Assembly: GCA_029978905.1 (NCBI GenBank)
Contig: JAPOIM010000003.1
Span: 37,528-101,527 of the forward strand
Direction of reading: 5' to 3'
From: Planctomycetota bacterium
GTDB lineage: Bacteria > Planctomycetota > Planctomycetia > Pirellulales > UBA1268
DNA: 64,000 bases
A program made the position numbers and the translations under genes. This document shows positions 19,621 through 39,759 of this stretch, piece after piece. Positions within the stretch are counted from its first letter, which is position 1. Each line of letters opens with the position of its first letter. The notes under the pieces were generated by a model that had not been told where the DNA came from, did no database searches, and worked only from the letters and a program-made list of their open reading frames with translations.

Positions 19621-19630
19621 CGGGGCGCTC

Positions 19631-19768: not shown

Positions 19769-19772
19769 TCGC

Positions 19773-21620: not shown

Positions 21621-21678
21621 TCTTCCTCCTGAGGAAGCTCGCCGAATGAAGAGCATCAACGCCAATCAGCGACTCATT

Positions 21679-23353: not shown

Positions 23354-23477
23354 GGAAAATCCGGGATGCAAAGGAAAAGCGGAAATGAGTTCGGAATCCA
23401 GTTTCAGGATATTTTGGCCATTCGGTCGCTGCTGCAGGGTGCGGTGAAACCACACGAAACCGCGTGCAGACGAGCCC

Positions 23478-23491
23478 GCAACACCCGTGGC
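23478..23491 (-). promoter_or_regulatory. Candidate sigma54-like element GCCACGGGTGTTGC
   Basis: 13/14 identical to 45978-45991; lies 124 nt upstream of the lipoprotein-DUF1559 unit. Confidence 0.45.
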
Positions 23492-23584
23492 TGGTGATTG
23501 CGTTCCGTAAGGGCGTACGTCCTCCCCGAAACCTTTGTTCGATTTTAGCCCCAAGAATCAGCGAGTCAACGGAAAAACACGCGA

Positions 23585-24847
23585 TTACGGCGCGGTGGGT
23601 CCCAGGGCGCCTGCCGGTGGTGCCGCAGCGAGCATCTGCTGCACCCTCGCTCGGAGCCGATCGGCGATTTCCGTCCCCCCACAATCGGCAATGTAGTCTG
23701 CGATCTCCACCATCGTTTCGGGATTGGTGGCCTGCACACTTGGTTGCTGTAGGATGGTTCTGCGGAGTGTGCGGCCTCGATCGGCTAGGTCGGCAAGCCG
23801 CGCAGCCTCTTCCTCGTTGCCGATTTTTCGCTGAATCACGGCCTGTTCGTGGAGGGCGATGGCGTCGTAGGGAAAGAGTTCGCGGGCTTTGAGGTAGGAG
23901 GAGTTCGCTTCCTCCAACTCTTCGCGAGTGCCGTGGACCCAGGCCTTGAATCGCCAGAAACGGTTGTCTTCCAGGGCAGATGGTGGGGCGGCGGCAAGCA
24001 GGCGAGTGACTTCCTCGACATCGCCGGCCGTTTGGGCCTTTTGGATAAAATAGGCCCTCGCTTCGATGTTTTCGGGGTATTTGTCAAAGAGTTCCTGCAG
24101 CCGACTCTCGCGGCTTTGGGCAACTTCGGAGGTGCTGCCTGCGGCGGCGATCTCTTCGTCTTGAAGGGAGTCTTCCAGGCCGCGGTTGGCGAGTTCCCCG
24201 CGCACCACGGCCACTTCGAAGAGTTCGGTGCCAGGGTTTTCTCCCAGCCAGCGGAGGTTGACCGACTCGGTGTTGGCAAGCGTGAGCCAGTCGGCTCCCA
24301 TCAGATAGACGTAGGTTTCCGGCATGTCGCAGCCCACGTCGATCGACTCTTTTGTGATTTGGTAAGTCTTTATCCGCTGCAGCGTGATCGCGTAGTAGAA
24401 GGTCAGCCGCCGCCGAGCTTCGCAGTTCTCGGGATCGAGCCGAAGCACCCGGTCCAACGTGCGAACCGCTTCTGATGGCCGGCTGAGTTGCCCAAACATC
24501 AGGTCCACTCGCTGCAACAGCGCGGGCACGGTCTTGGGGTCGTTATCGGGGAGGACCTCGAGGTAGTCGCCGGCCGCCCCGTAGTTGCCCAGCGCCATGG
24601 CGGATTCGGCGGCGATGATCAGTGGATCGGCGAGCGTTGGTTCCAGGTGGGCCCATTCAAAGGCCAACTCTTCAGTCCGAGCCCAGTCGCGCACCTGCCG
24701 AGCGCCGAGGCAGTCTGTCCGCACCGCGTAGGCCCGGCCCTTGTGCCAGTACTGGTAGCCCACAAGCACCACGCCGGCGACCAACACACCGCCGAGGACC
24801 AGTTTCAGCCAGGGACGCACCGCGGTGGCTGGGCGTTCGTCTCTCAC
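23585..24847 (-). CDS. Membrane-anchored TPR protein
   Basis: N-terminal TM helix followed by TPR-like helical repeats (LDPENCEA, KYPENIEA, LFPYDAIA). Confidence 0.75.
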   Translation of the reverse strand: MRDERPATAVRPWLKLVLGGVLVAGVVLVGYQYWHKGRAYAVRTDCLGARQVRDWARTEELAFEWAHLEPTLADPLIIAAESAMALGNYGAAGDYLEVLPDNDPKTVPALLQRVDLMFGQLSRPSEAVRTLDRVLRLDPENCEARRRLTFYYAITLQRIKTYQITKESIDVGCDMPETYVYLMGADWLTLANTESVNLRWLGENPGTELFEVAVVRGELANRGLEDSLQDEEIAAAGSTSEVAQSRESRLQELFDKYPENIEARAYFIQKAQTAGDVEEVTRLLAAAPPSALEDNRFWRFKAWVHGTREELEEANSSYLKARELFPYDAIALHEQAVIQRKIGNEEEAARLADLADRGRTLRRTILQQPSVQATNPETMVEIADYIADCGGTEIADRLRARVQQMLAAAPPAGALGPTAP

Positions 24848-24852
24848 CGAAC

Positions 24853-25785
24853 CTACTCCTTCGCATCCGTGGAAGCGGCACGTTGAGCCGAGGTGATGGC
24901 GGTGAGGGTGCCGGCCTGATCGAGCAGGTAGATCGCTTTCGCCCGAGGGTCGGCGACGAGCACGCCTGCCGACGAGCGAGCCAGCCCGACTGGCCCCTGC
25001 AGCGGCGCCCCTGAGACCAGTTTGGTGACATCGCCAGCCGTGCTCACCTGCCAGATGCAGGCGGCGTAGTTGTCGCTGACGTAGGCGACGCCGTCGTCAT
25101 CCACCACCACATCGTGCGGAAACTCAAACGCCCGCTCGGTCACGACCGGGTCTACCGAGCCGTCGACGGCCACCCGCACCAGCGGAGCGTCGCCTGAGGC
25201 GGCGATGGCCCACAGCTGATCGCGTGTATCCACAAACAGGCCTCGCGGGGCTGCGAGTTGGGCCACCTCCTCGGGGTCGCCACCGGCGACAGGCAGCTGC
25301 CAAATCCGCTGCGTTTCCAGGTCCGACACAAACAGCTGCCCGGTGCTCGTAATCGCGAGATCGACGGGGATACCAATCTTGCCGCCGGTCAGCGGCGTGG
25401 GCGTGCCGTCTTCTGCCAAGCGATAGATCTCGCGTGTGGCGGAATCACCGACAAACACGCTGCCGTCGGCTGCCACCGCGACCGCCCGGATCGCGTTGAG
25501 CGGGGTGCGAAACCGTTTCTCTCCGCGAGCAAAGACTGCCGGGGCCCCGTCGGTGACCTTCCACACCCCAGGCAGCAGCCGGTCGGCCACGTAGAGCGTG
25601 CGGTCGTCGACGGCGGCCACCGAGAGAGGATACTGCAGCGTCTCGGAGGCCTCCTGTCCCCAGGTTGCTTTGGAAGAGGCAGCGAAAAGCAACAACAGGC
25701 AGGCCGCTGTGAGAGAGACGCGACCGGTCGGCCACCGGCGGCTGCATCGACCTCGCGCGACGAAATCCAAGCACGGCATGTTCAT
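24853..25785 (-). CDS. Secreted NHL-repeat beta-propeller protein
   Basis: Signal peptide; repeats YPLSVA..LYVAD, PVDLAI..LFVSD, FPHDVVV..YVSD. ATG 25785 overlaps the upstream TGA. Confidence 0.8.
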   Translation of the reverse strand: MNMPCLDFVARGRCSRRWPTGRVSLTAACLLLLFAASSKATWGQEASETLQYPLSVAAVDDRTLYVADRLLPGVWKVTDGAPAVFARGEKRFRTPLNAIRAVAVAADGSVFVGDSATREIYRLAEDGTPTPLTGGKIGIPVDLAITSTGQLFVSDLETQRIWQLPVAGGDPEEVAQLAAPRGLFVDTRDQLWAIAASGDAPLVRVAVDGSVDPVVTERAFEFPHDVVVDDDGVAYVSDNYAACIWQVSTAGDVTKLVSGAPLQGPVGLARSSAGVLVADPRAKAIYLLDQAGTLTAITSAQRAASTDAKE

Positions 25786-28700
25786 GGGCGGTTTGGCTCC
25801 GGTCCCCCTTTTTCCCCAACGAATCCTACCTCCGACTCCGCGGAATCGCGACGGAGGAACTGCCAAAAGGCAGCTGTGTGCCGACGTGTCTGGTACTCCA
25901 GAAGATAGGCGCGATACGCGTCGCTGTCTGGTGGAGGATCGTCGGCCGCCGGTGGATAGCTCCGCATCGCGGCAAAGGGGAGGGGCTCGGAGGTGTCGCC
26001 GACGGCCGTGGCGAGATTGGCGTCTTTGTCCCAGCCAAAACTTGCCAGCACGAAATCCCGCTCCCACCCAGGCTGGGCAAGAGGTGGTGCGGCAAATCGC
26101 AGCGTCATTTCGTCCCCGGAACCCATCACCACCAGCCGGTCGTCTTGAGCGGCAAGCAGGTCGCAGACATCACCGAAGCGGGTGAAGGCTCCATACATGG
26201 GCGGCCACTTGGGGGAAGTGTTGACGTGGGCGTAGTCGAACTGCTCCGGACCAGCCCCCGCGGCCTGCTCGATCCGCGAAAAGCCACGGTGATGCAGGTC
26301 GGCCGAGAGCGGTCGCACCTCGTGCGTGACCATCTCGACCGGTGCTTCGCCGGACGTGAAGAAGATGGCGTCCCAGGCGATTTCCATCGTGGTCTCAATC
26401 CGCACGCGTGGATCCTCGACGGGTACGAGGCCACTGAGGTTCACGGCCATCGTCTTGGTCTTGCCGCCAGGGAAACCCATCATCGGCAGCACCGTCTTCC
26501 AGCCGCCCGTGCCGTCGGGCACCGACAGGCTCGGCGGCGCCGGAAGGCCAAGGGCAGGATCCCGTCCGAGGGCGACATTGAGGCTGACCGTCGTGGGGTA
26601 GGTCCAACCGGTGAGAAAGAGCGTCAGTTGGGAGGGATCGTTGAGGGTGCCGAGGTCGAGTTCGACGACCGATGGCTCGGTGAGGCCTTGGCGAATCTTG
26701 CGACCAGAAGGGGGCAGGAACAGACCGTCCTCAGCCGACACCAAAGGCAGCACATCCTGGCCGTCCCCTGTGTGTGCGGCGACAGGCACCTTCCGCTCCC
26801 GAACCGCATGCAGGCCAAACGCGGCGATGCTCGGCGGCCCGACCTTTTCGTTGGAGAAAACTTCGACGCCGGGGGGATGATCGATCGCCAGCAGTTTGAC
26901 CTCGTCAAAGTAGGCTGCTTCCCAAAGCTCCTCGGTGATCTGCATTCGATACTCACCATCGGCTTCGACGAGCAGGCCACGGGGAATCGAGATGAACTCC
27001 TGCGGCCGATCGGGCATCAACTCCCCTTCGCTCCGCTGCAGTCCCAGCGGCGCAGCCCAGAGCAGATCGGTCACGAAGCGGTAGCCGCTGCCGTCCCAGG
27101 TGTAGAGGTACGGGCAGGAGCCGAGCAGGATCTGCTGCTCGCAGACCAGCAGGTTGGCCTGAGGTTGCAGGATGTTTTGTGGCACGCCATTGAGCCACAG
27201 CACGCGGACCGCATCCGCCCCAACGCGATCGCCAAGGCCAAAGTGGGTCGTGCGTCGGCGGACCGACTGCGGCTGGTAGAGGCCACCTGCCTTAAGTTCG
27301 AGCAGGCTCCCAAGTCCATGGGCGTTGACGCGGCCACTCGGGGCGAAGTCGCCTCCCTTGATCTGCTGGGCTTCCAGGTCGATCGCCAGCCAGTGGTGGG
27401 CATTGCCTCCGTCGTTGTCGAGCACCAGTGACGCATCGCTGGCCACGGCGAGGTCGAGGTCGCCATCACCGTCGAGGTCGGCAGTGTCGACGCTGTGGAG
27501 GCCACGCACGTCCGTGGGCATCACGGAAGCGGCAGTGAAGCCCGCAGGGGTGCCTCGCCAGGCCTGAAGTTGGTCCGGCTGCCAGCTGATGAGGTCCAGC
27601 CAGCCGTCGTTGTCGTAGTCGACAGTGATCAGCCCATCGCAGGGGGACGCATCGATTTGCTGTGCGGCAAGGTCGCTCGCCCTGGATGCCGCAGCAACAT
27701 CCCGCAGCAGCCAGAGCCCATCAGGACCCGCCACGACCGCATCCCAGCGGCCGTCGCCATCGGCGTCGAGCAGGTCGAGGCTGCGGGCCGTGCGGTCAAA
27801 CGACGTCGCGTGGTAGCGAAACTGCCCATGCCGAAGATTCTCGAGGATGCCCACACCGGCCTCACCGCAGAGCACGAGGTCGACGTCGACATCAAAGTCG
27901 AGATCGATGGGGACGATGGCGGCGACGGCGTGTTCACGAGGTGGCATGGCTGCGGAAGGCGTGGCGTCGACAAAGCCCTGCGAGCCGTGGTTTTGCCACA
28001 GGTGCAGGCCGTGGTCGTCCCACACCACGAGGTCGATCGGACCATCGGCATCGAGGTCGGTGGCGGCGGCCGCGAGCACCGCGCCTGTGACATTTGGCAG
28101 GGCCGCGGGCAGCGGCTCAAGCGAGCGCGAGGTGCCGTCTTCACCGAGACGATTCTCTAAGGCGACGAGTCCGCCGCTGCCGAAGGCCACCAGGTCGAGG
28201 TCGGCGGCAGGGCAGCGTCGCATCGTGGGCGCCGTGGCACCCTCTGGAGCCGTGGCGGACGCCGCAACTTCGGCCTGCCGTTTCGCCTCGTCAAAGTCGA
28301 GGTCGAGGTCGACGGCAAGCACGCCGCGGCAGCCGTCAGGAACGGGGGCCGTGAGCGACGGAGCCCAGCCGTCGGGCCTGCGGGTCAAGACGGTGAGCGT
28401 GGTCTCGTCCACGAGCACGAGGTCGACGTTTCCATCGAGATCGATGTCTTCCAGCCGCACTGCTGTGGCAGGGCTGCCCCCATCGAGAGCCAGAGGTTGC
28501 GGCGCATATGTCACGGGAATCGCTGCGGCGTCGGTGACGACGGCTGCTGCCGAGCGGACGTCGTCAGAGAGCCGTTCGATCACAAACTCCAGCGGATGAG
28601 GATCGACGGCCGTTCGGTCGCCCGCAGCCTGCGGAACCAAGAGGTTCGCAAGCCCGCGAAACGTGCCCGACGCTGCGGCGGTGTCGCCTGCGTCGAGTGC

Positions 28701-29444
28701 GGAGATGCCGCGGTCGAGCAGCATCCGCACGTCAGTCTTCGTGAAGGCGAGCACCGCGGGAGCAAAGGGGGCGATCGCCTGCCACCTTGCTTCCACGTGC
28801 TCTCCAAGCGCGGCGTCGGCGGAGAGTGCGCCGCGATCAAGGCCGATCGCCGCAGCCCGCAGCCATTCCACGGCAAGCCAGAGGTTGCGTGGATCGGCGG
28901 TGCATGCCTGCTCCAGGGCTTCGACATGACCATCTCCGCCACCATCGGCTTCGTCTCGCAGCTGCAAGGCCTGCCAGGAGCCATACCAGGCAGCGGCATC
29001 CTCGGGGCTGATTTCCACGACCTTGGCAAAGGCGGCCGCGGCCGCGTCGGCATCCCCAGCAAGCAGCGCGAGTTTGGCAGAGAGCCAGTGGAACGCACGC
29101 GAGGGCCCCTCGACCGCCGCCAGTCGCTCGAGGGCGGCCACGGCCGTGCTGAGCTGCTCGGTGGTCACGGGGCCTTCACCGATCGCCAAGATCGAGGCGA
29201 CCACCAGATTGCGTGGGCCAAAGGGGTCGGTCGGCAGGGCTTCGGCGAGGGCGCCGAGCCGCGGCGTTGCCGCGCCGAGTTCCTGGTTCTCGAGTTCAGC
29301 GATGGCGAGGTTGGCTTCGTGGAGCAGTGCCTCGGCGGTCGCCGGATCGATGGCTTCAGGCCGGGGCCAAAGCCACCAGGCTGCCGTGGCGAGGCCTGCG
29401 ATCAGAACGGCGACGCCGGCCCAGGTCAGGGATCGGTGTGTCAT
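25782..29444 (-). CDS. Large TPR + FG-GAP + ASPIC/UnbV protein with an extended C-terminal domain
   Basis: TM anchor, TPR-like helices, many DxDxDGxxD repeats, UnbV (HFGLG..VRVLWLNG), then a SCPYLYTWDG...GWDKDAN domain. Confidence 0.85.
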   Translation of the reverse strand: MTHRSLTWAGVAVLIAGLATAAWWLWPRPEAIDPATAEALLHEANLAIAELENQELGAATPRLGALAEALPTDPFGPRNLVVASILAIGEGPVTTEQLSTAVAALERLAAVEGPSRAFHWLSAKLALLAGDADAAAAAFAKVVEISPEDAAAWYGSWQALQLRDEADGGGDGHVEALEQACTADPRNLWLAVEWLRAAAIGLDRGALSADAALGEHVEARWQAIAPFAPAVLAFTKTDVRMLLDRGISALDAGDTAAASGTFRGLANLLVPQAAGDRTAVDPHPLEFVIERLSDDVRSAAAVVTDAAAIPVTYAPQPLALDGGSPATAVRLEDIDLDGNVDLVLVDETTLTVLTRRPDGWAPSLTAPVPDGCRGVLAVDLDLDFDEAKRQAEVAASATAPEGATAPTMRRCPAADLDLVAFGSGGLVALENRLGEDGTSRSLEPLPAALPNVTGAVLAAAATDLDADGPIDLVVWDDHGLHLWQNHGSQGFVDATPSAAMPPREHAVAAIVPIDLDFDVDVDLVLCGEAGVGILENLRHGQFRYHATSFDRTARSLDLLDADGDGRWDAVVAGPDGLWLLRDVAAASRASDLAAQQIDASPCDGLITVDYDNDGWLDLISWQPDQLQAWRGTPAGFTAASVMPTDVRGLHSVDTADLDGDGDLDLAVASDASLVLDNDGGNAHHWLAIDLEAQQIKGGDFAPSGRVNAHGLGSLLELKAGGLYQPQSVRRRTTHFGLGDRVGADAVRVLWLNGVPQNILQPQANLLVCEQQILLGSCPYLYTWDGSGYRFVTDLLWAAPLGLQRSEGELMPDRPQEFISIPRGLLVEADGEYRMQITEELWEAAYFDEVKLLAIDHPPGVEVFSNEKVGPPSIAAFGLHAVRERKVPVAAHTGDGQDVLPLVSAEDGLFLPPSGRKIRQGLTEPSVVELDLGTLNDPSQLTLFLTGWTYPTTVSLNVALGRDPALGLPAPPSLSVPDGTGGWKTVLPMMGFPGGKTKTMAVNLSGLVPVEDPRVRIETTMEIAWDAIFFTSGEAPVEMVTHEVRPLSADLHHRGFSRIEQAAGAGPEQFDYAHVNTSPKWPPMYGAFTRFGDVCDLLAAQDDRLVVMGSGDEMTLRFAAPPLAQPGWERDFVLASFGWDKDANLATAVGDTSEPLPFAAMRSYPPAADDPPPDSDAYRAYLLEYQTRRHTAAFWQFLRRDSAESEVGFVGEKGGPEPNRP

Positions 29445-29750
29445 GGCTCAGTTGCTCGCGGGAGGAGAAGGTGGCGGGGCCGAATGGCGGGCCTCGGCGT
29501 CAGCCACCGAGGCTCGCAGCTGGGGTACGGCAGGATGCTCGGGGGCGATCGCCGCCAAACCAGTGAAGTGCCGGGCCGTGTGGACAAAACCATCCTCGAA
29601 CATGCTCCGGCTGAACAGACAACTTCTCGAGTATCCCGCTGCCCAAAAGGCTCGGTCAAGCGGCACACTCGAGCGCCTCACTGTAGACTTTTCCCTTCGA
29701 AAGCCAGCCAGACAAGACCGCCAGACTTGAGATTCGCCAGAGGATGCCCC

Positions 29751-31079
29751 ATGCACCACCCCGAGCCCATCGAACGCCTCGTGAACCTGCTCGATCCTGC
29801 GGGCAACCTGATCTTCAACATGTCTGTTGATGAGGCGGTGGCACGCGTCGGCTCGGGCGATCCAGCGAAGGTCCGCGAGATCGAAGGGCAGTTTGCTCTC
29901 GTGCATCGCGATGGAAAGCAGATTCGCCTGGCCCGCTCGATCGGCCGACCGCTGCGGTATTTCATCGCCAAGAAGGCGGCCGGTCCTGTGCTGATCACGG
30001 CCGATCGCATCGACGCGATTCATGCGTGGCTCAAGCAGGAAGGGCTCGCCGATCAGTTTCATCCCTCCTACACCCGCATGGTGCCGGCCCACCACATCAT
30101 GGAGCTGCACCTCGTCGGCTGCCCCGATCCTAGCCCCACCTGCACCCGCTTCTTCACGCCGGAGCGGAATCGCTGGTCGACAAGCCTTGATGACATCGGC
30201 CGCCGCTACATGCAGGCGGTGCAAGACTCGATCGATCACTGGCTCGATCGCATCGGTCCGCACGAGCCGATCGGCGTGCTCTTCTCGGGCGGGATCGATA
30301 GCGGCGCTCTCGTGGTGCTCCTCCACGACCGGCTGCTGGCTCGTGGCGAGTCACCGCAGCGGCTCAAAGCCTTCACGCTCTCGGTCGAGAGCGACGGCGC
30401 TGACCTGCGACAGGCCCGCGAGTTTCTGCATGCGCTGCAGATGGACTATCTGCTCGAGGCGGTTGAGGTGAGCCCGGAGGAGATCAGCCTCGCCGATGCC
30501 ATCCGGGCCCTCGAAGACTACAAGCCGCTCGATGTGCAGGCGGCGGCCGCGACGCTCGCTTTGTGCCGAGGCATTCGACAGCGGTATCCCGAGTGGAAGC
30601 ATCTCGTCGATGGTGATGGTGGCGATGAGAACCTCAAGGATTACCCGATTGAAGACAATCCGGAACTGACGATCCGCAGCGTTCTCAACAACCTGATGCT
30701 CTATCAGGAAGGCTGGGGGGTGGAGGCGATCAAGCATTCCCTGACCTACTCCGGCGGTCAGAGCCGCGGCCACGTGCGCAGCTACGCACCGGCAGCCACG
30801 CTCGGCTTCCAAGGCTTCAGCCCGTATGCCCTCCCCAACGTGATCGAGGTGGCCGAGGGCATTCCCTTTATTGAGCTCACCGACTGGGATCACGAGAAGC
30901 TCTACGCCCTCAAGGGCGAGATTGTCTGCCGCGGACTGAAACTCCTCACGGGCCGCGACATGCCGGTCTTTCCCAAGCGGCGATTCCAGGCAGGGATCAG
31001 TGCGGAGGGCACGGTCGAGGCGCTCTTTCCCGCAGACCCGCAGCTCTACCGTCGGCTCTTCCAGGAGTGCTGGAGCTGA
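29751..31079 (+). CDS. Asparagine-synthase-related ATP pyrophosphatase/amide ligase
   Basis: PP-loop LFSGGIDSG, DGDGGDE, PKRRFQ and a GQFALV Ntn remnant. Real start is probably MHHPEP at 29751; the upstream part of the track ORF is antisense to the FG-GAP gene. Confidence 0.82.
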   Translation: MHHPEPIERLVNLLDPAGNLIFNMSVDEAVARVGSGDPAKVREIEGQFALVHRDGKQIRLARSIGRPLRYFIAKKAAGPVLITADRIDAIHAWLKQEGLADQFHPSYTRMVPAHHIMELHLVGCPDPSPTCTRFFTPERNRWSTSLDDIGRRYMQAVQDSIDHWLDRIGPHEPIGVLFSGGIDSGALVVLLHDRLLARGESPQRLKAFTLSVESDGADLRQAREFLHALQMDYLLEAVEVSPEEISLADAIRALEDYKPLDVQAAAATLALCRGIRQRYPEWKHLVDGDGGDENLKDYPIEDNPELTIRSVLNNLMLYQEGWGVEAIKHSLTYSGGQSRGHVRSYAPAATLGFQGFSPYALPNVIEVAEGIPFIELTDWDHEKLYALKGEIVCRGLKLLTGRDMPVFPKRRFQAGISAEGTVEALFPADPQLYRRLFQECWS

Positions 31080-31117
31080 CGCTTGGCGAGTCGGGCCGGC
31101 TCGGGGGCTTTCCTGCC

Positions 31118-32590
31118 CTACCGCGGGGCGGTGTGGGCGAAGCGGTTGGCAGCGCTCGGGTTGAAGAGCCCGGCCGTGTCGTAGCGCTGCAGCGACTCAT
31201 GGAGGCTCGCGAGCGTGTCGGCAACGTCAGCGACACCGGCCGCGGCCCGCAGTAGCGTGTTGCGGGCGGCGGTAAGATCCCGACGCAGAGGCGATGCGTC
31301 GGCTGCCAAGAAGCCGCATGCGTGGGGAGGAGTGCCTGCCTTCGCTGTCTGCTCAAAGCGGATTGTGGCGAGAAAAAAGAGGGTGCAGGCTGCGCGAAAG
31401 AGCCGCGGTTCCCCCATCGTGACGTAGGCGGCACTCACGAGTTGGTCGATCCAGCGGATCTCGTCGCAGACGGCTGTGCCGTAGGTCAACCAGTCATCGC
31501 TGGCATGGCGATCGGTCAGCAGCAGATCGGCGACTCTGGCCACGCCATGCACGGCGTGGGCGATGCCGGTGCTGTGGAGCGGATCGACGAAGCCTGCGGT
31601 CGTGGGCAGCATCGCCCATCCAGGACCGGAGGCGTGTGACCACGCCCGCTGCAGCGGGCCCATGGCAGCGAGAGGTTGAACGGGGTCGGCCGACTCTAAG
31701 AGCGACCACAGGCTGGGGTAATCGCGGAGGAGTTCTCGCCAGAGGTGGTCGAGGTTGGCGGTGCGGTCTGGAGGGTTGCCCGGCTCGATAAGGCCCACAC
31801 TCGTGAGTCCGTCATCGAATCGCAGCATCCACAGCCAGCCATGCTCGAGCAGGTGATGCTGCGCGGCATCATCGGAGCGAAACGGCGCGATCGTGGAGGC
31901 GTCACCTGCCGCGAGACGCTGAGCATCCCAACTGCCGGCGTTGCGAAAGTGACTAAAGATTGCTGACGTGTGGGTTTCGAGGGCGGCATCCTGGCGGCGG
32001 AGGCCAAGGGTCACGCCGAGCACGCCGGCCGCGCCGCTGGCATCGATGACCACGTCGCAGCAGATCTGTTCCTCGTGGGCAGCGTCATCGGCCTGCCAGG
32101 AGAGGTGCCAGCGATCTGCCTCGCGCTCAAGCCGTGTGAGTCGACAGCCTTCTCGCGCGAGCCCGCCTGCGGCCTGTGCCTGCTCAAAGAGCCATGCGTC
32201 CACATCCGCGCGGAGCCAGTGCGTGTCGCTCTGCTCGTCGCTGCTGCTGGCGGCGACGAGCAGCGAGGCTTCGTGGTCGGGCGTGTCGGTGTAGGGCTTG
32301 CCTCGGTGATGCCGGAAGTAGGAGAAGCCTCGCTTCTTGCCGCAGCGGAGCTTCGGCAGGTGGGTCTTCCAGGAGCCATACCTGGAGAGCGGAGCGAGGG
32401 CTGGGAGTTGGTATCGCGCGGCGAGGTCGGCAATCACCATGTCGGCAGCCGGTGTGCTCGACTCACCGATCGCAAACCGTGGATGGTGGAGGCGGTCGAT
32501 GATCGCCACCCGCATCCCCTGTGACGCGAGGATCCAGGCAAGCAGGCTGCCGCTGAAGCCACTGCCGATGATCACGACGTCACACGTCAT
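31118..32590 (-). CDS. Flavin-dependent halogenase-like oxidoreductase
   Basis: GSGFSG, PRFAIGES, KKRGFSYF (candidate catalytic Lys), GWLWMLR (WxWxI-like) and FVDPLHSTG. ATG overlaps the radical SAM stop. Confidence 0.8.
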   Translation of the reverse strand: MTCDVVIIGSGFSGSLLAWILASQGMRVAIIDRLHHPRFAIGESSTPAADMVIADLAARYQLPALAPLSRYGSWKTHLPKLRCGKKRGFSYFRHHRGKPYTDTPDHEASLLVAASSSDEQSDTHWLRADVDAWLFEQAQAAGGLAREGCRLTRLEREADRWHLSWQADDAAHEEQICCDVVIDASGAAGVLGVTLGLRRQDAALETHTSAIFSHFRNAGSWDAQRLAAGDASTIAPFRSDDAAQHHLLEHGWLWMLRFDDGLTSVGLIEPGNPPDRTANLDHLWRELLRDYPSLWSLLESADPVQPLAAMGPLQRAWSHASGPGWAMLPTTAGFVDPLHSTGIAHAVHGVARVADLLLTDRHASDDWLTYGTAVCDEIRWIDQLVSAAYVTMGEPRLFRAACTLFFLATIRFEQTAKAGTPPHACGFLAADASPLRRDLTAARNTLLRAAAGVADVADTLASLHESLQRYDTAGLFNPSAANRFAHTAPR

Positions 32591-33555
32591 GCCTGGCACC
32601 CACACGTGAGGTCGGGGCGAGAAATGTGCCGCTGGGTCAAGTTCATCGCCGCCAGCCGGGCCTGCCGCACCGGACGGCAGACGTCGCAACTTCCCGCGAG
32701 CGTGGGGAAGTCCCAGAGATCGATGGTCACCACGGTCGCGGTGGCCGCGGCGACCTCAGACGGCTCCGACAGGGCCGCGTCCGCCACGGCCTCAAGGTCC
32801 GCCGCGGTGGGGAGGCGGAGCGGTCCGTCGTCAAGCAACCGATCGACCCAGCCATTGCCACGTCGCAGCGGCACGATGCTCACGTGCCGGATGCCACACT
32901 CTCGCGCAAACGCCACCGACCGCAGGCACCACGCCACCGCCTCGTCTGGAGCGATGCCCGGCACACCGAGCAGCACGAAGGCCCGCGTGTCCACACCCCA
33001 CGCAGCGAGCGTCTCGCAGGCGCGGGCCATGTCGTCGAGCGTCATCTGTTTGTTGAGGGCGGCGAGGGCTTCCGGGTGCGCGGTTTCCAGGCCCATGGCC
33101 ACCTCGAGTTGGCCAGAGAGCTGATCGCGAAACGCCGGCACCACCTCACTGCAGAGACGCGGATGGTTTTCTACGACCACCCGTTCAAACGAAGCGACGA
33201 GGCTTGCGATTTCGGGAAGATCCTCCCGCGGCACGCTCCGGTGATCAAAGAAGTTGCTGCCGTTGTAGAGCTTGATCCAGCGGGGAGGCTTGGCACCAGG
33301 GGCTGGGTGCGCGAGGCCGTGGCGAATCTGCTGCGGCAGGATGCCTGGGGGCGTCGGCGTGGGGAGCGTATGCTTCCAGAGGTCACACATGCTGCAGGTG
33401 AAGCGGCACTCGCCACCGGTGAGGAGCATCACCCTGGTGCTGACACCCACTCCCGGCGAGGCTGTCTCTTCCTCATCCCACACGGCCTGCGGGACCTCGA
33501 GCGCCACGTCCGCTCGCGCCCCTCGCAGGCTGCGGATCTCGGCTGAAGCAGCCAT
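32587..33555 (-). CDS. Radical SAM enzyme, RaSEA/TIGR01210-like
   Basis: CRFTCSMC (CxxxCxxC), KLYNGSNFFD, VENHP and LEVAMGLETAHP..LNKQMT. Confidence 0.85.
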   Translation of the reverse strand: MAASAEIRSLRGARADVALEVPQAVWDEEETASPGVGVSTRVMLLTGGECRFTCSMCDLWKHTLPTPTPPGILPQQIRHGLAHPAPGAKPPRWIKLYNGSNFFDHRSVPREDLPEIASLVASFERVVVENHPRLCSEVVPAFRDQLSGQLEVAMGLETAHPEALAALNKQMTLDDMARACETLAAWGVDTRAFVLLGVPGIAPDEAVAWCLRSVAFARECGIRHVSIVPLRRGNGWVDRLLDDGPLRLPTAADLEAVADAALSEPSEVAAATATVVTIDLWDFPTLAGSCDVCRPVRQARLAAMNLTQRHISRPDLTCGCQA

Positions 33556-33560
33556 GGCGG

Positions 33561-34913
33561 TCAGACGAGCACGGAATCAAGCCGGCCCGTCGAGTCGCCA
33601 AAGTGATCCTGCGGCGCGCCCATGATGTCGAGCATCGTGAGGTAAAGATTCGACATCGGCTGCTCATCGGACAGCACGAGGTTGCGACCGGTGGTCAGTC
33701 GACCTCCTGCAGAGCCAGCCATGATCACCGGCAGGTCGTTGTGGTTATGCCGGTTTCCATCGGAGAGGCCACTCGTGTAGAGCAGCATCGAGTTGTCGAG
33801 CAGGCTGCGGCCATTCTCTTCGCGGATGTCCTTCATGCGGGCCAGCACGTAGGCCAGCTGCTCACCGTAGAAACGGTCGATGCGGGCAATCTTTTCGAGG
33901 TTCTCTTCCTTGCCCTGATGGTGTGAGAGGTTGTGGTGGCCATCCCCCACACCCACTTCAGGGAAGCTGCGGTTGCTGCCATCGTGGGCGAGCATGAAGG
34001 TGGCGATCCGCGTGGAGTCGGTCTGGAAGGCGAGCACCATCATGTCGGCCATCAGACGGATGTGATCGGCATACGAGGATGGCGGACGATCGGGCAGTAC
34101 GAGCTCCGGCACGCCGGCGACCGACTCAGGGTTAAACGCAGCCACCCGCTGTTCGATCTCGCGAACACCGGTGAGGTACTCGTCGAGTTTGCGACGATCA
34201 TTCGTGCCGAGGTTCTGCGAAAGCCCACGAGCTTCGCCGAGCACAAAGTCGAGGATCGACTTCTGTTCTTGCTGTCGGGCGGCCAGGCTTTCCGCCCGCT
34301 CATGACCGCTGCCCGCGCCAAAGAGCCGCTCAAACACGAGCCGCGGGTTGGTCTCCGCCGTGGCCGGCTGGTTCTCACTCCGCCACGACATGTTGAAGGA
34401 GTAGGCGCAGGAGTAGCCCGAGTCGCAGTTGCCACTCTTGCGGGATGCGTCACAGGAAAGTTCAAGCGAGGGGAAGCGGGTGTTGTTGCCGATCACGCTC
34501 GCCGCAACCTGGTCAACGGAGACGCCGGCCTTGATGTCGGCGCCTGCGGTCTTGCGGGGGCGCGCGCCCGTGAGAATGGTGGCCACGGCTCGGGCATGGT
34601 CACCCGCCCCGTCGGGCCCAGCGAAGCCATTTTGCTGGGCAAGGCCGCGGATGAACTGCAGGTCGTGGCGGAAGGAGGTCAGCGCTTCCAGCGAGGGACC
34701 AAAGGAGTAGTCGGCGCCGCTTCCCGTGGGCATCCACCGTTCGACGTTCACACCGTTGGGGATGTAGAGAAACGCCATGCGCGTGGGGACGGCGGCGGCC
34801 GCGGCGGCGTGAGCGGGGCTGGCTAGCGAACCCAACGTGGGCAGCGCGAGCGAAACACCAAGCCCCCGCAGCAGGGAGCGGCGGCTGATTTCGTTGCGGC
34901 GTGCGTTCGACAT
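33561..34913 (-). CDS. DUF1552 (HXXSHH) protein with Tat-like signal
   Basis: SRRSLLRGLG, YIPNG, CDSGYSCAY, TDSTRIAT, HHNLSHH and HNHNDLP. GAGGAG precedes the start. Confidence 0.9.
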   Translation of the reverse strand: MSNARRNEISRRSLLRGLGVSLALPTLGSLASPAHAAAAAAVPTRMAFLYIPNGVNVERWMPTGSGADYSFGPSLEALTSFRHDLQFIRGLAQQNGFAGPDGAGDHARAVATILTGARPRKTAGADIKAGVSVDQVAASVIGNNTRFPSLELSCDASRKSGNCDSGYSCAYSFNMSWRSENQPATAETNPRLVFERLFGAGSGHERAESLAARQQEQKSILDFVLGEARGLSQNLGTNDRRKLDEYLTGVREIEQRVAAFNPESVAGVPELVLPDRPPSSYADHIRLMADMMVLAFQTDSTRIATFMLAHDGSNRSFPEVGVGDGHHNLSHHQGKEENLEKIARIDRFYGEQLAYVLARMKDIREENGRSLLDNSMLLYTSGLSDGNRHNHNDLPVIMAGSAGGRLTTGRNLVLSDEQPMSNLYLTMLDIMGAPQDHFGDSTGRLDSVLV

Positions 34914-34968
34914 GATGGGTCTCCTCAACAAAGTCTCGTTTGGTTGAACGAGCGACGGGCGTCCGAGG

Positions 34969-36957
34969 TTACGGTCGGCGATACTGAAAAGGCACGCTTG
35001 TGACCACACCTCGCACGATATCGGTCAGGCTTCCGCCAGCGTCGGCCTGGTCTACGATTTTATCGACTGCGGGGGCATCGAAGTATTCCACTCCACGGCC
35101 GAGGGCGTAGGTCATGACTTTTTCGCTCAAACAGCGGTGAAAGTCGGTTTTTCGCGGGCCCGCGATCGTTTCGGCAAGTTCCTGCACGTTGGCGAAGGAC
35201 TCGCCTGTAATGAGTGTGCCGGCTGTATCGATGCTGTCGGCCTGCTCTCCCCGCCACTGGCCGATCGCGTTGTACTGCTCAAGGGCGAGGCCCAGCGGAT
35301 CCATCCGGGCGTGGCAGGAGGCGCAGAGGGCGTCTTTGCGATGGAGTTCCATCAGTTCTCGCATGCTCGCATCCTCGCCGACCCCGGCGGCCACCTCTTC
35401 CAAGGTAGGCACATCGGCTGGTGGCGGTGGAGGTGGGGTGCCGAGAAGATTCGTGAGAATGAAGAGACCTCGCTTCACCGGCGACGTGCGTGATGGATTG
35501 GAGGTCACCATCAGAAAGCTTGCCTGTGTCAGCAGGCCACCGCGATGACTTCCTTCGGGCAGGTCCACCAGCTGCATGCTCTCCCCTTCGATATCGGGCA
35601 CGCCGTAGAAGCGGGCCAAGCGATCGTTGAGAAAGGTTGACTTGCCCACGATCAGGTCGGTCGCCGGTAGGCCTTCTCGCAGCAGGTGCGCGAAGAGCAT
35701 CTCGGTCTCACGCTTCATCGCTTGCCGAAGGTGGTAGTTGAAGAATCGGTCTGCGCCGCCGCGACGTCGACGATCGTCGCCTTCGTCGCTGTTGAAGACC
35801 ACGACGGCGTTGAGATCGAAGGGAAGAGTTTCCACATCGCGCGTCTGCAGCCACTGACCAACGAAGTTCTCCACGAAGGCGTTGCTCCGCTCATCGGCGA
35901 TCATGCGGTCGATCTGCCCATCGAGTTCGGCCCGCAGCCGCCCTTCGCGAGCAAGCGTGAAGAGCTCCGCATCAGGCATCGTGCTCCACAGGAAGTAGGA
36001 GAGCCGTGAGGCGAGCGAGTAGTCGTCGATCGGCTGTGCCTGCGGGCCGAGATCATCGCCACCTGTGTCAGCCACATCTTCGATGCGAAATAAGAAGCGT
36101 GGCGAGGCGATCACAGCAGCCGCAGCAGCAGCGATACGGTGCTCAAAGGGAGTGCCGTCGCCGCCCGCCGATTTCGCGACAGTCACCAGCCGTCCGAGCG
36201 TGGCGTCGTCTACGGGCCTGCGGTAACCGCGGTCGGCGAGCGTGCGGAGGGTTTCGCGGAGATGCCGTTCGGCTTCCACTTCGTCGCCAGGCGGGGGGCC
36301 GAGCGGGAAGAGCCGCTGATAGAGTTCACGGTAGCCTTCGCCATCGCGAGAGCGTGCCTCGTCGGCAATCTGTTCGGCAACTCGTGAGGCAACGCCGACA
36401 TATTTCTCCAGCAGCAGTGGTGAGATGGAGAGCACGGCCCCGATTGTGTCGAAGCCGTAGCCAGTGTCGTCTGGAGGAAGTTCGTAGGTGACGTCGATGT
36501 CGACACCCGTGAGATCGCGAACGGTGTTGGCATACTCCACGCGGTTGAGCCGTCGCAGCACCACCTGCCCCGGATCGGGGTGGGCAGCATCGATGCCCAG
36601 CACGTCGGTCTCGACATACTGCAGCAGGGCGGCTTTTTCGTCGGCGGTCGGCTGGGGGGCATCGGCTGGCGGCATGATGCCCGCCCGCACGTTTCGCACC
36701 ACCGTGGCCCATGCGGCGACATCGCTCTCGGCAGCCGGTGTGCCGAGGTGCTCAAGCAGCCTGTCGAGGGCCACGCCTCCTTCTTCAGCCCCGTCGCAGT
36801 GGCAGTCACCACACGACTGCCGCAGCAGGTCGCCGCCGGCGTCGCCGCGAGTGACGGCTGCGGTCAGGCAGAGCAGCAGCGCGAGGGCTGCCCGTGGCAT
36901 CACCACCTGAGCGTTCCCGAGACGCTCGCGGCGTGTTCTCTCGTCGACTCTCGACAT
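34969..36957 (-). CDS. DUF1592/DUF1588 planctomycete cytochrome-c domain protein (short form)
   Basis: CGDCH, MPP, LRRLNRVEYANTVRDL, LASRLSYFLWSTMPD, TSPVKRG and CASCH. Start uncertain (36900-36957). Confidence 0.88.
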   Translation of the reverse strand: MSRVDERTRRERLGNAQVVMPRAALALLLCLTAAVTRGDAGGDLLRQSCGDCHCDGAEEGGVALDRLLEHLGTPAAESDVAAWATVVRNVRAGIMPPADAPQPTADEKAALLQYVETDVLGIDAAHPDPGQVVLRRLNRVEYANTVRDLTGVDIDVTYELPPDDTGYGFDTIGAVLSISPLLLEKYVGVASRVAEQIADEARSRDGEGYRELYQRLFPLGPPPGDEVEAERHLRETLRTLADRGYRRPVDDATLGRLVTVAKSAGGDGTPFEHRIAAAAAAVIASPRFLFRIEDVADTGGDDLGPQAQPIDDYSLASRLSYFLWSTMPDAELFTLAREGRLRAELDGQIDRMIADERSNAFVENFVGQWLQTRDVETLPFDLNAVVVFNSDEGDDRRRRGGADRFFNYHLRQAMKRETEMLFAHLLREGLPATDLIVGKSTFLNDRLARFYGVPDIEGESMQLVDLPEGSHRGGLLTQASFLMVTSNPSRTSPVKRGLFILTNLLGTPPPPPPADVPTLEEVAAGVGEDASMRELMELHRKDALCASCHARMDPLGLALEQYNAIGQWRGEQADSIDTAGTLITGESFANVQELAETIAGPRKTDFHRCLSEKVMTYALGRGVEYFDAPAVDKIVDQADAGGSLTDIVRGVVTSVPFQYRRP

Positions 36958-37103
36958 AAAACCCTTGCTCTCCGAGGCTGCGTCATGCTGCGTTGGCGGA
37001 ACTTGCACCCTACCATCCCCGTGTGGCTCAGGCCACGCCGCTGCCCCCTCTCGGAGCCGTGCCCGGGCTACCATAGAAGGCCTCACCAGCTCCCACGGTG
37101 CCC

Positions 37104-39716: not shown

Positions 39717-39759
39717 CCCGTGGTAGTGCGGTATGTGACACGCAGGGAAGGAGAAGCGA

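What the first reader, a model, noticed from the sequence alone, without database searches (positions are those of the whole stretch)
29751..33555. Candidate undescribed enzyme module: radical SAM + halogenase-like + glutaminase-less AsnB-like ligase
Seen: three adjacent tailoring-type enzymes. The radical SAM and halogenase-like genes are translationally coupled by an ATGA overlap. No NRPS, PKS, carrier protein or evident RiPP precursor lies in the window, and the trio is flanked by secreted FG-GAP/TPR/NHL genes and cytochrome-c DUF1592/DUF1552 pairs. Known: these families perform radical bond cleavage, electrophilic halogenation and ATP-dependent amide formation. Inference: a scaffold-free pathway that makes or modifies a small halogenated, N-containing compound. 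I know of no characterised pathway with this combination.
Basis: partly seen in the sequence, partly recalled or inferred. Interest (0 to 1): 0.88.

Follow-up and report, generated by a model that had tools for sequence, protein, structure and literature searches.

The report
Conserved ligase, radical-SAM, halogenase-like gene trio
Three neighbouring enzyme genes of unknown function are inherited or lost together in many planctomycete and Rhodothermales-type genomes, always alongside a large exported propeller protein, so they probably form one uncharacterised pathway.

Summary
The window holds an AsnB-like PP-loop ligase without the glutaminase cysteine (29751-31079, +), a PltM/CtcP-like flavoenzyme (32590-31118, -) and a RaSEA-like radical SAM enzyme (33555-32587, -). 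The last two share an ATGA overlap. One correction: the ligase gene lies on the opposite strand, convergent with the flavoenzyme gene.

In 201 genomes of the window's class, ligase and radical SAM orthologs occur in exactly the same 63. The flavoenzyme is in 54 of those 63. In 151 genomes of a second class (that of a Rhodothermales MAG) the counts are 29, 28 and 27, all nested. In 35 of 80 fetched loci the order is ligase, radical SAM, flavoenzyme on one strand.

Two points change the reading:
- The flavoenzyme is an accessory. It keeps the halogenase lysine, but the WxWxIP motif reads W-x-W-x-L-R in 50 of 50 orthologs, so halogenation is unproven.
- The "flanking" FG-GAP genes are linked. All 92 ligase-positive genomes hold a homolog of the 1220-aa exported TPR/FG-GAP/ASPIC protein, against 96 of 260 negative ones, and it is often adjacent.

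Function is unknown. My best guess is ATP-dependent amide ligation followed by radical C-N chemistry, as in ArcS/RaSEA. I found no description in print.

The parts
29751..31079 (+). AsnB-like / beta-lactam-synthetase-like PP-loop ATP-dependent ligase, 442 aa, with no N-terminal Cys nucleophile. It is the most conserved member of the module.
   Evidence: PF00733, 52.6 bits. TIGR01536, 58.3 bits against a cut-off of 267. SGGIDS PP-loop aligned to the SGGLDS of AsnB/ASNS. AF2 model pLDDT 85.3. Foldseek top hits: beta-lactam synthetase 1m1z (1.1e-13), human ASNS, AsnB 1ct9, CarA 1q19. Median 62% identity over 44 loci.
31118..32590 (-). Flavin-dependent halogenase-like FAD enzyme (PltM/CtcP-like), 490 aa. 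It is an accessory member of the module.
   Evidence: PDB sequence search: 7v0b at 2.4e-39 and 6bza at 1.3e-38, over residues 3-405. The lysine in the C-G-K-K-R-G-F stretch aligns with the lysine of the corresponding PltM and CtcP stretches. W-x-W-[MI]-L-R replaces WxWxIP in 50 of 50 orthologs. Present in 54 of 63 and 27 of 29 ligase-positive genomes.
32587..33555 (-). RaSEA-like (TIGR01210-like) radical SAM enzyme, 322 aa. It forms the core pair with the ligase.
   Evidence: CxxxCxxC at residues 50-57, invariant in 19 of 19 aligned homologs. TIGR01210, 72.8 bits (cut-off 212.15), HMM positions 1-211 of 313. Found in the same 63 of 201 genomes as the ligase.
32587..32590 (-). ATGA overlap of the radical SAM stop codon and the FAD-enzyme start codon.
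   Evidence: Read directly from the sequence.
25782..29444 (-). Large exported protein, 1220 aa: N-terminal membrane anchor, TPR, FG-GAP repeats, ASPIC/UnbV, and a C-terminal beta-sandwich region. It is divergent from the ligase gene (306-bp spacer) and genetically linked to the module.
   Evidence: Pfam. C-terminal 451 aa is single copy in the own genome. A homolog is present in 63 of 63 and 29 of 29 ligase-positive genomes, against 64 of 138 and 32 of 122 negative ones. It sits in one operon with ligase and radical SAM in 5 of 6 f110 loci. Residues about 115-270 of the C-terminal model resemble CBM32/CBM35 modules, Z 8-10.
24853..26067 (-). NHL-repeat protein downstream of the large protein. 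The ORF as listed is over-extended at its 5' end.
   Evidence: PF01436, 58 bits. An ortholog sits in the same position in L025-type loci.
23585..24847 (-). TPR protein.
   Evidence: TPR_19, 33.2 bits.
19773..21665 (-). Second, smaller FG-GAP/ASPIC protein, 630 aa.
   Evidence: FG-GAP_3, 162.6 bits, and UnbV_ASPIC, 56.1 bits. A counterpart lies directly upstream of the radical SAM gene in L025-type loci, and between the large protein and the ligase in f110 loci. It is one of only 7 UnbV_ASPIC matches in the 4.26-Mb genome.
33561..37086 (-). DUF1592 (37086-34969) and DUF1552 (35009-33561) pair directly upstream of the radical SAM gene on the same strand. They are probably co-transcribed here, but they are not a conserved part of the module.
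   Evidence: Pfam. There is a 5-bp gap to the radical SAM start. Homologs of this pair appear in only 7 of 80 related loci. The own genome holds 13 DUF1552 copies.

Best explanation
The three genes are one functional module.

Composition:
- The core is a pair: a glutaminase-less AsnB / beta-lactam-synthetase-like ligase and a RaSEA-like radical SAM enzyme.
- The PltM/CtcP-like flavoenzyme is a frequent but dispensable third member.
- The module belongs to a larger system built around exported beta-propeller proteins: a 1220-aa TPR/FG-GAP/ASPIC protein, a smaller FG-GAP/ASPIC protein and an NHL protein.

Most likely mechanism (all three steps inferred, none shown):
1. In the cytoplasm the ligase adenylates a carboxylate and joins it to an amine. 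That amine is not glutamine-derived ammonia.
2. The radical SAM enzyme then cleaves or rearranges the adduct by C-N chemistry, as RaSEA does with the lysine adduct made by ArcS.
3. The flavoenzyme halogenates or hydroxylates an activated carbon of the same substrate.

The product is more likely a small molecule than a protein residue. It is made for, or used with, the exported propeller proteins.
For: SHOWN: functional coupling.
- Of 80 loci anchored on the radical SAM gene, 57 have the FAD gene directly downstream on the same strand (54 with a gap of 200 bp or less).
- 45 of the 80 have the ligase gene: 35 directly upstream on the same strand and 10 convergent downstream, as in the window. 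42 of the 80 have both.
- Among the 39 loci with at least 3 kb upstream and 6 kb downstream: 27 have both, 2 FAD only, 2 ligase only, 8 neither.
- Class sample of 201 genomes: ligase in 63, radical SAM in the identical 63, FAD in 54 of those 63.
- Second class, 151 genomes: ligase 29, radical SAM 28, FAD 27, all within the 29. None of the 122 ligase-negative genomes has either.
- In many genomes the genes are unlinked yet all retained. One example is G393, where the FAD gene lies about 330 kb away.

SHOWN: link to the exported protein.
- A homolog of its C-terminal 451 aa is in 63 of 63 and 29 of 29 ligase-positive genomes, against 64 of 138 and 32 of 122 negative ones.
- It is also in 4 of 4 non-planctomycete trio genomes tested.
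- By my reading of the place tables, it lies within about 10 kb of the ligase gene in 16 of the 63, spread over families f1, f2, f3, f110 and f111.
- In 5 of 6 f110 loci one operon reads: ABC ATPase, large protein, FG-GAP/ASPIC, RnfD-like membrane protein, ligase, radical SAM.
- Locus L069 holds all of these plus the FAD gene.
- Two of the own genome's 7 UnbV_ASPIC genes lie within 10 kb of the trio.

INFERRED: chemistry.
- The ligase has the PP-loop and the two-domain AsnB / beta-lactam-synthetase fold but no Cys nucleophile.
- The radical SAM enzyme's best family match is RaSEA.
- RaSEA removes the lysine skeleton from the ArcS product, so lysine serves as nitrogen donor, and it works in a complex with ArcS (PMC11298593, passages read).
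- The FAD enzyme aligns over about 400 residues with PltM and CtcP and keeps the lysine.
Against: - No substrate, product or activity is known. Every mechanistic step rests on superfamily resemblance.
- The RaSEA match is far below the family cut-off (72.8 against 212 bits), and no ArcS/TGT-like gene is among the conserved neighbours.
- The FAD enzyme lacks the I-P of WxWxIP in 50 of 50 orthologs. It is absent from 9 of 63 and 2 of 29 genomes that keep the pair. One of those two, G599, also lacks a radical SAM hit; I suspect a fragmented assembly, which I did not check.
- 96 of 260 ligase-negative genomes have a homolog of the large protein, so that protein works without the module. Shared lineage or habitat could produce part of the association, because related genomes are not independent.
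- In most Pirellulaceae-type loci no FG-GAP gene lies within 10 kb. tblastn finds the large protein in 8 of 80 loci; ORF clustering finds the wider FG-GAP/ASPIC family in 19 of 80.
- The very high conservation of the ligase (median 62% identity across orders and two phyla) would also fit a macromolecular substrate.
Confidence: 0.4

Rival explanations
1. One reading: a scaffold-free pathway that makes a halogenated, nitrogen-containing small natural product. The FAD enzyme is a true chlorinase or brominase, and the neighbouring exported proteins are irrelevant.
For: - The closest solved relatives of the FAD enzyme are free-substrate halogenases, PltM and CtcP.
- The catalytic lysine is conserved in 50 of 50 orthologs.
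- No NRPS, PKS or carrier domain in the ORFs scanned.
- The window sequence recurs in estuary, seawater and sediment metagenomes, which are halide-rich.
Against: - WxWxIP is changed to W-x-W-x-L-R in 50 of 50 orthologs.
- The FAD gene is missing from 11 of 92 genomes that keep the other two, so halogenation cannot be the point of the pathway.
- Several carrier loci come from freshwater-lake MAGs by their record titles.
- The association with the large exported protein is not explained.
- The only planctomycete brominase in the papers I read, BaaB, sits beside a chorismate lyase and is Bmp5-like, which is a different system (10.1101/723874, passages read).
Confidence: 0.2
2. A maturation system for a peptide or protein, RiPP-like or like quinohemoprotein amine dehydrogenase maturation. 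The radical SAM enzyme makes a cross-link, the flavoenzyme oxidises or halogenates an aromatic residue, and the AsnB-like enzyme closes a lactam or isopeptide bond. The target is exported.
For: - The FAD enzyme also gives sub-threshold matches to the protein-modifying flavoenzymes QhpG (1.5e-19), GoxB and LodB.
- Glutaminase-less AsnB homologs include peptide macrolactam cyclases (NF033561, weak hit at 2.7e-4).
- The module is tied to exported proteins, and an ABC ATPase heads the f110 operon.
- The strong conservation of the ligase fits a macromolecular substrate.
Against: - No conserved small ORF lies near the trio. The 12 largest clusters printed, of 4917 small ORFs, looked to me like shadow frames of the FG-GAP genes, by their position and composition.
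- No RRE, leader peptidase or SPASM domain was found.
- In 60 aligned large proteins (29 from trio-positive genomes, 31 from negative ones), no column is at least 90% conserved in positives and at most 10% in the 23 clade-forming negatives. So no trio-specific target residue is visible.
- The QhpG score is 70 against a cut-off of 240.
Confidence: 0.2
3. A nucleic-acid (tRNA, rRNA or DNA) base modification pathway related to archaeosine synthesis. A PP-loop enzyme activates a base, an amino acid is added, and the RaSEA-like enzyme trims it.
For: - The best family match of the radical SAM enzyme is RaSEA. A weaker one is the tRNA-modification enzyme MnmL/YtqA.
- PP-loop chemistry is common in tRNA modification (recalled, from no call).
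- The ligase is unusually conserved.
Against: - The distribution is patchy and accessory: 63 of 201, 29 of 151, and 9 of 301 in the phylum-wide sample.
- No transglycosylase, QueC/D/E-like or RNA-binding gene is among the conserved neighbours.
- The ligase fold is AsnB / beta-lactam synthetase, not a tRNA PP-loop family.
- The tie to exported proteins is unexplained.
Confidence: 0.07
4. Three unrelated enzymes that happen to be neighbours.
For: In the window the ligase gene is on the other strand. The radical SAM gene follows an unrelated DUF1552 gene by 5 bp.
Against: Identical presence and absence of ligase and radical SAM in 201 genomes, and near-identical in 151 more. Conserved gene order in two phyla.
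Confidence: 0.02

Closest known systems
ArcS-RaSEA (archaeosine synthesis in Euryarchaea)
   Same: A group-transfer enzyme is paired with a TIGR01210-type radical SAM enzyme. An amino acid, lysine, serves as nitrogen donor in place of glutamine or ammonia, and the radical SAM enzyme removes its carbon skeleton (PMC11298593, passages read). In both systems the two genes travel together.
   Different: The partner here is an AsnB-like PP-loop ligase, not a TGT-like ArcS. The radical SAM enzyme scores 72.8 against the 212-bit family cut-off and matches only HMM positions 1-211 of 313. The hosts are bacteria. No tRNA-related neighbour was found. The substrate is unknown.
PltM and CtcP (tetracycline 7-halogenase), flavin-dependent halogenases of free phenolic substrates
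   Same: Alignment over about 400 residues at 1e-38 to 1e-39. The GxGxxG motif, the G-E-S/A-T-P stretch and the lysine are conserved.
   Different: WxWxIP reads W-x-W-[MI]-L-R in 50 of 50 orthologs. The C-terminal roughly 90 residues are unmatched. No flavin reductase or polyketide/pyrrole context is present. Activity is unknown.
Beta-lactam synthetase, carbapenam synthetase and asparagine synthetase B
   Same: A two-domain fold: a vestigial Ntn domain plus a PP-loop synthetase domain. Foldseek E 1e-13 to 4e-11, TM 0.53-0.66. The SGGxDS and G-[DE]-G-x-D-E motifs align. Like beta-lactam synthetase and CarA, it has no N-terminal Cys.
   Different: Only 442 aa. Sequence similarity to any solved member is marginal (E 4e-7 with a profile). 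The family is tightly conserved and always paired with a radical SAM enzyme.
Quinohemoprotein amine dehydrogenase maturation (QhpD radical SAM, QhpG flavoprotein, dedicated ABC exporter). The system as described here is recalled, from no call.
   Same: A radical SAM enzyme plus a halogenase/GG-reductase-type flavoprotein acts in the cytoplasm on something that ends up outside the cell. An ABC ATPase sits in the f110 operon.
   Different: QhpG scores 70 against a cut-off of 240. No SPASM domain, small subunit gene or peptidase was found.

Membership tests
Flavin-dependent halogenase | N-terminal GxGxxG FAD-binding motif | tested here: met
   G-S-G-F-S-G at residues 9-14; variants G-S-[GS]-F-[STA]-G occur in the orthologs.
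Flavin-dependent halogenase | Catalytic lysine that carries or guides the hypohalous species. This definition is recalled, from no call. | tested here: met
   The second K of G-K-K-R-G-F aligns with the K of the matching PltM and CtcP stretches. That K is present in every variant listed for the 50 orthologs; only the commonest 12 variants were printed.
Flavin-dependent halogenase | WxWxIP motif. This definition is recalled, from no call. | tested here: not met
   The window protein has W-L-W-M-L-R. All variants printed for the 50 orthologs read W-x-W-[MI]-L-R-F, while PltM and CtcP in the same alignment have W-x-W-x-I-P.
Flavin-dependent halogenase | Halide-dependent halogenation, with a partner flavin reductase | not testable with these tools
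   No reductase is among the conserved neighbours. The genome-wide search was not done.
Asparagine synthetase B (class II glutamine amidotransferase) | N-terminal Cys nucleophile of the glutaminase domain. This definition is recalled, from no call. | tested here: not met
   The N-terminus is M-H-H-P-E. No Cys lies near the start in any of the 26 aligned orthologs.
Asparagine synthetase B (class II glutamine amidotransferase) | PP-loop SGGxDS and the synthetase-domain fold | tested here: met
   S-G-G-I-D-S at 179-184 is invariant at S, G, G, D, S. It aligns to ASNS/AsnB. Foldseek hits 1ct9, 9b6c and 1jgt.
Asparagine synthetase B (class II glutamine amidotransferase) | Score above the curated equivalog cut-off | tested here: not met
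   TIGR01536, 58.3 bits against 267.1. NF006949, 27.5 bits against 499.
RaSEA (TIGR01210 archaeosine radical SAM) | CxxxCxxC radical SAM cluster motif | tested here: met
   C50, C54 and C57 are invariant in 19 of 19 sequences.
RaSEA (TIGR01210 archaeosine radical SAM) | Score above the curated cut-off over the whole model | tested here: not met
   72.8 bits against 212.15. Only model positions 1-211 of 313 are matched.
RaSEA (TIGR01210 archaeosine radical SAM) | ArcS/ArcTGT partner | tested here: inconclusive
   No such family is among the recurrent neighbours in 80 loci. Whole genomes were not searched for ArcS or TGT.
Lasso-peptide / macrolactam cyclase systems | Precursor peptide, leader peptidase and RRE next to the AsnB-like cyclase | tested here: not met
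   No conserved small-ORF family. The only recurrent neighbours are radical SAM, FAD and FG-GAP genes. NF033561 scores 19.7 bits against 300.
QhpG/LodB/GoxB protein-modifying flavoenzymes | Score above the curated cut-off | tested here: not met
   QhpG, 70.2 bits against 240. GoxB, 37 against 400. LodB, 29.6 against 400.

The most novel reading that the evidence does not exclude
The trio makes a so-far unknown small cofactor or ligand: an amide-bearing molecule, halogenated or hydroxylated in most lineages. It is exported and needed by a family of periplasmic or surface beta-propeller proteins (TPR/FG-GAP/ASPIC and NHL), in the way PQQ serves propeller quinoproteins.

This would explain the nested distribution: every genome with the pathway has the propeller protein, while some genomes have the propeller protein alone and could scavenge the compound. 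It would also be the first bacterial use of RaSEA-type 'amino acid as ammonia surrogate' chemistry outside tRNA.
Probability: 0.15. Interest if true: 0.85.

Novelty: new variant of a known kind. Interest (0 to 1): 0.62.

Why it matters
All three proteins belong to well-studied enzyme superfamilies. Their subfamilies carry only generic names in the databases searched ('asparagine synthase-related protein', 'radical SAM protein'). My five literature searches found no description of the combination.

The module is common: 63 of 201 genomes in the window's class and 29 of 151 in a second class. The ligase search returned 8000 proteins at E 0.001 or better, which is the tool's candidate limit. The best 120 listed are all at least 67% identical to the query.

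The genetics is unusually clean, with identical presence and absence of the two core genes. That makes it a good target for enzyme discovery:
- a glutaminase-less AsnB homolog that always works with a RaSEA-like radical SAM enzyme;
- a large halogenase-like clade with an altered signature motif.

The tie to abundant but unexplained exported FG-GAP/ASPIC proteins of planctomycetes offers a first handle on what those proteins need.

Tried and rejected
- **Complex prediction, ligase with radical SAM**. Verdict 'no answer' (score 0.00, mark 0.32). This is no evidence either way.
- **Conserved small ORFs as a possible precursor**. I clustered 4917 ORFs of 18-110 aa within 2.5 kb of the trio in 86 loci plus the window. 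The 12 largest clusters printed looked to me like alternative frames of the neighbouring FG-GAP genes. The method would miss short or fast-evolving peptides.
- **Rfam** at E up to 1 over window 19000-38000: 0 matches.
- **Promoter and terminator scan** of 29300-37300: no more sites than in shuffles.
- **Trio-specific residues in the large protein**: 0 columns. One row, L097, was dropped because its longest ORF sat on a very long branch. G637 was never fetched.
- **Tree of the large proteins** (FastTree only). The trio state needs 7-10 changes, and 23 of 31 negatives fall in two clades. The association is therefore partly lineage-bound.
- **ESM Atlas on the C-terminal region** of the large protein: only unnamed clusters.
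- **Foldseek on the C-terminal model**: no match at E 0.001 or better. VIA-align gives CBM32/35-like beta-sandwich matches for residues about 115-270 only, Z 8-10, which is near the tool's background level.
- **RnfD-like membrane protein** of the f110 and L069 loci: not found in the own genome, which is 94% complete.
- **DUF1592/DUF1552 as module members**: rejected. Homologs are in only 7 of 80 loci, and the families are multi-copy (13 DUF1552 in the own genome).
- **Expression**. Contigs of three metatranscriptome runs from one study cover the region at depths like the DNA run. Contigs cannot show transcription, and DNA carry-over is not excluded. I claim nothing from this.
- **BaaB brominase** of planctomycete strain 10988 and the **ammosamide halogenase and Asn-synthetase-like enzymes**: different systems.
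- **Literature searches** found no paper on this gene combination. These cover open-access PMC and bioRxiv only. I opened no supplementary files. Supplementary tables of halogenase or planctomycete gene-cluster surveys could list this cluster.

Full report
**1. What is in the window**

Reading the ORFs and junctions gives three genes:
- An AsnB-like gene on the + strand: ATG 29751 to stop 31079, 442 aa.
- On the - strand, a radical SAM gene: 33555-32587, 322 aa, CxxxCxxC at residues 50-57.
- Directly after it, an FAD enzyme gene: 32590-31118, 490 aa.

The AsnB-like gene is convergent with the FAD gene, separated by 38 bp. The radical SAM start follows the stop of an upstream DUF1552 gene by 5 bp on the same strand. 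In this genome the likely transcription unit is therefore DUF1592, DUF1552, radical SAM, FAD, with the ligase gene transcribed separately. The ligase gene is divergent from a 1220-aa FG-GAP gene, with a 306-bp spacer.

**2. Family assignment**

- *Ligase.* It matches PF00733 (52.6 bits) but no curated equivalog; TIGR01536 gives 58.3 bits against a cut-off of 267. It has the PP-loop S-G-G-I-D-S, and its N-terminus is M-H-H-P with no cysteine. An AlphaFold2 model from 26 orthologs (pLDDT 85.3) matches beta-lactam synthetase, human and E. coli asparagine synthetase, carbapenam synthetase and TsnB9 over both domains (Foldseek E 1e-13 to 4e-11, TM 0.53-0.66). A profile of the family aligns its PP-loop and its D-G-D-G-G-D-E stretch with the corresponding AsnB/ASNS motifs.
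- *Radical SAM.* It is below Pfam's cut-off for PF04055. Its best NCBIfam match is RaSEA (TIGR01210): 72.8 bits against a cut-off of 212, model positions 1-211 of 313. No solved structure matches by sequence at E up to 1.
- *FAD enzyme.* It aligns over residues 3-405 with the tetracycline 7-halogenase CtcP (2.4e-39) and PltM (1.3e-38). In 50 orthologs the GxGxxG motif, the G-E-S-S-T-P stretch and the lysine that aligns with the PltM/CtcP lysine are kept. The WxWxIP motif reads W-x-W-[MI]-L-R throughout. That WxWxIP and this lysine define halogenases is my recollection, not a tool result.

**3. Is it a module?**

I anchored a search of one genome per species on the radical SAM family. Results from tblastn of the window's proteins against these 80 loci:
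- The FAD gene is directly downstream on the same strand in 57. The gap is 200 bp or less in 54.
- The ligase gene is present in 45: directly upstream on the same strand in 35, and convergent downstream in 10, as in the window.
- Both are present in 42.
- Many loci are cut by contig ends. Among the 39 with enough flank: 27 have both, 2 FAD only, 2 ligase only, 8 neither.
- Median identity to the window proteins: 62% for the ligase, 47% for the radical SAM enzyme, 43% for the FAD enzyme.

The 8 'neither' loci prompted whole-genome searches. In an even sample of 201 genomes of the window's class:
- The ligase (E 1e-30 or better) is in 63, and the radical SAM enzyme is in exactly the same 63 handles.
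- The FAD ortholog (E 1e-40 or better) is in 54 of these 63. One other genome has a 30%-identical relative.
- The nine without it all belong to one family, f110.
- In many genomes the genes lie on different contigs or hundreds of kb apart, yet all are kept.

The phylum-wide sample gives 9 of 301, so the module is accessory and lineage-restricted.

As a replicate I sampled the class of the genome behind locus L075, a Rhodothermales MAG by its record title. In 151 genomes the ligase is in 29, the radical SAM enzyme in 28 and the FAD enzyme in 27, all inside the 29. Neither occurs in the 122 ligase-negative genomes. Related genomes are not independent, so I give no p-value. The pattern is the same in two phyla and is patchy within genera.

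**4. The neighbours matter**

ORF clustering over the loci shows only one further recurrent family: FG-GAP/ASPIC proteins, in 19 of 80 loci plus the window. Three arrangements occur:
- *Window type.* Large TPR/FG-GAP/ASPIC protein, NHL, TPR, DUF1559, then a 630-aa FG-GAP/ASPIC protein, all on the - strand and divergent from the ligase gene.
- *L025 type.* Large protein, NHL and further genes, then a 682-aa FG-GAP/ASPIC protein directly upstream of radical SAM and FAD.
- *Family f110.* 5 of 6 loci fetched read: ABC ATPase, large protein, 610-690-aa FG-GAP/ASPIC protein, RnfD/NqrB-like membrane protein, ligase, radical SAM. There is no FAD gene.

Locus L069, from another lineage, holds ligase, radical SAM, FAD, large protein, small FG-GAP protein and the RnfD-like gene together.

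The C-terminal 451 aa of the large protein has no Pfam match and is single copy in the own genome. A homolog occurs as follows:

| Sample | Ligase-positive genomes | Ligase-negative genomes |
|---|---|---|
| Window's class | 63 of 63 | 64 of 138 |
| Second class | 29 of 29 | 32 of 122 |
| Non-planctomycete trio genomes tested | 4 of 4 | not tested |

In the window's class, 62 of the 63 score at least 255 bits. G464's copy is split into two pieces beside its ligase gene. Only 5 negative genomes reach 255 bits.

The module is therefore nested inside the distribution of this exported protein. The own genome has only 7 UnbV_ASPIC matches in 4.26 Mb, and two of them flank the trio. By contrast, homologs of the DUF1592/DUF1552 pair that sits upstream in the window appear in only 7 of 80 loci.

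**5. What does it do?**

Nothing here shows a substrate. What follows is inference.

The invariant pairing of a glutaminase-less adenylating ligase with a RaSEA-like radical SAM enzyme recalls ArcS-RaSEA. There, lysine rather than glutamine or ammonia is added to preQ0, the radical SAM enzyme removes its carbon skeleton, and the two proteins work as a complex (PMC11298593, abstract and passages read). My leading model has three steps:
1. ATP-dependent ligation of a carboxylate to an amine.
2. Radical C-N cleavage or rearrangement of the adduct.
3. In most lineages, halogenation or hydroxylation by the flavoenzyme.

I favour a small-molecule product made for the exported propeller proteins. The trio proteins show no N-terminal hydrophobic stretch or signal-like start in the translations, so I take them to be cytoplasmic. 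No precursor-like ORF is conserved. The large protein also shows no residue conserved specifically in trio-positive genomes (0 columns).

All of these are weak negatives. A peptide or protein maturation system remains a serious rival, since the FAD enzyme also matches QhpG, GoxB and LodB below their cut-offs. An RNA or DNA modification role is less likely, given the patchy distribution and the lack of any nucleic-acid-related neighbour.

The C-terminal region of the large protein models as beta-sandwiches. Residues about 115-270 resemble CBM32/CBM35 modules at Z 8-10, which is close to the tool's background. At most this hints at a carbohydrate-binding surface protein.

**6. Novelty**

Database names for the three proteins are generic. 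Five full-text searches found no description of the combination. These searches cover open-access papers and preprints only, and no supplementary files were opened. The planctomycete brominase BaaB (10.1101/723874, passages read) and the ammosamide enzymes (PMC12715798, passages read) are different systems.

I rate this as a new variant of a known kind. The enzyme superfamilies are known, and the 'transfer enzyme plus RaSEA-type radical SAM' logic is known. The partner, the host range, the third enzyme and the genetic context are new.

**7. Verdict**

The module is real and widespread. 'Halogenated small molecule' is one possibility among several, and the flanking FG-GAP genes are part of the story.
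- Confidence that the three genes are functionally coupled is high. Confidence in the specific mechanism is low. The overall figure of 0.4 covers the whole statement.

Noticed in passing
window 33561-41157 and 47646-51480: Three DUF1592/DUF1552 (planctomycete cytochrome-c / HXXSHH) gene pairs lie in this 64-kb window. The whole 4.26-Mb assembly has 13 DUF1552 matches, so this is a local concentration.
   Followed up: partly
L082-L085, L087 (for example L087:10002-10892) and L069:18124-18852: A membrane protein of about 295 aa with a weak RnfD/NqrB match (PF03116, 29.8 bits) sits between the small FG-GAP/ASPIC gene and the ligase gene in family f110, and beside the module in L069. It was not found in the window's own genome.
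   Followed up: partly
window 25785-27152 (C-terminal region of the 1220-aa protein): This region has no Pfam match but has 55 invariant columns in 44 sequences. Examples in the numbering of the C-terminal alignment are C13-P14, D91-H92-P93, W260-D261 and W374-K376-D377. It looks like a conserved binding or catalytic site on beta-sandwich domains.
   Followed up: partly
window 16253-19620: Haem-synthesis genes lie just beyond the FG-GAP block: uroporphyrinogen decarboxylase (16253-17359, -) and glutamyl-tRNA reductase (18346-19620, +).
   Followed up: no
window 51902-56201: A MacB-type export set: HlyD-like adaptor, MacB/FtsX permease, and an ABC ATPase-like match at 55527-56201. No link to the module was tested.
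   Followed up: no
L004, L007, L026, L035, L040, L048, L069 (record titles): Several loci with planctomycete-type gene content carry record titles such as Candidatus Kuenenia, Chitinophagaceae or Chitinophaga. The bin labels may be unreliable, so I did not count phyla from titles.
   Followed up: no
window 19500-37500: Near-identical sequence is held by estuary, seawater and sediment metagenomes of 12 studies. Contigs from three metatranscriptome libraries of one study also hold it. One RNA-library contig spans the DUF1552 / radical SAM junction (33341-34158). Contigs cannot show transcription.
   Followed up: partly
G560, G599 (second-class sample): G560 keeps adjacent ligase and radical SAM genes but gave no FAD ortholog at E 1e-40 or better. 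G599 has the ligase near a contig start and neither partner, which I suspect reflects a fragmented assembly; I did not check this.
   Followed up: no
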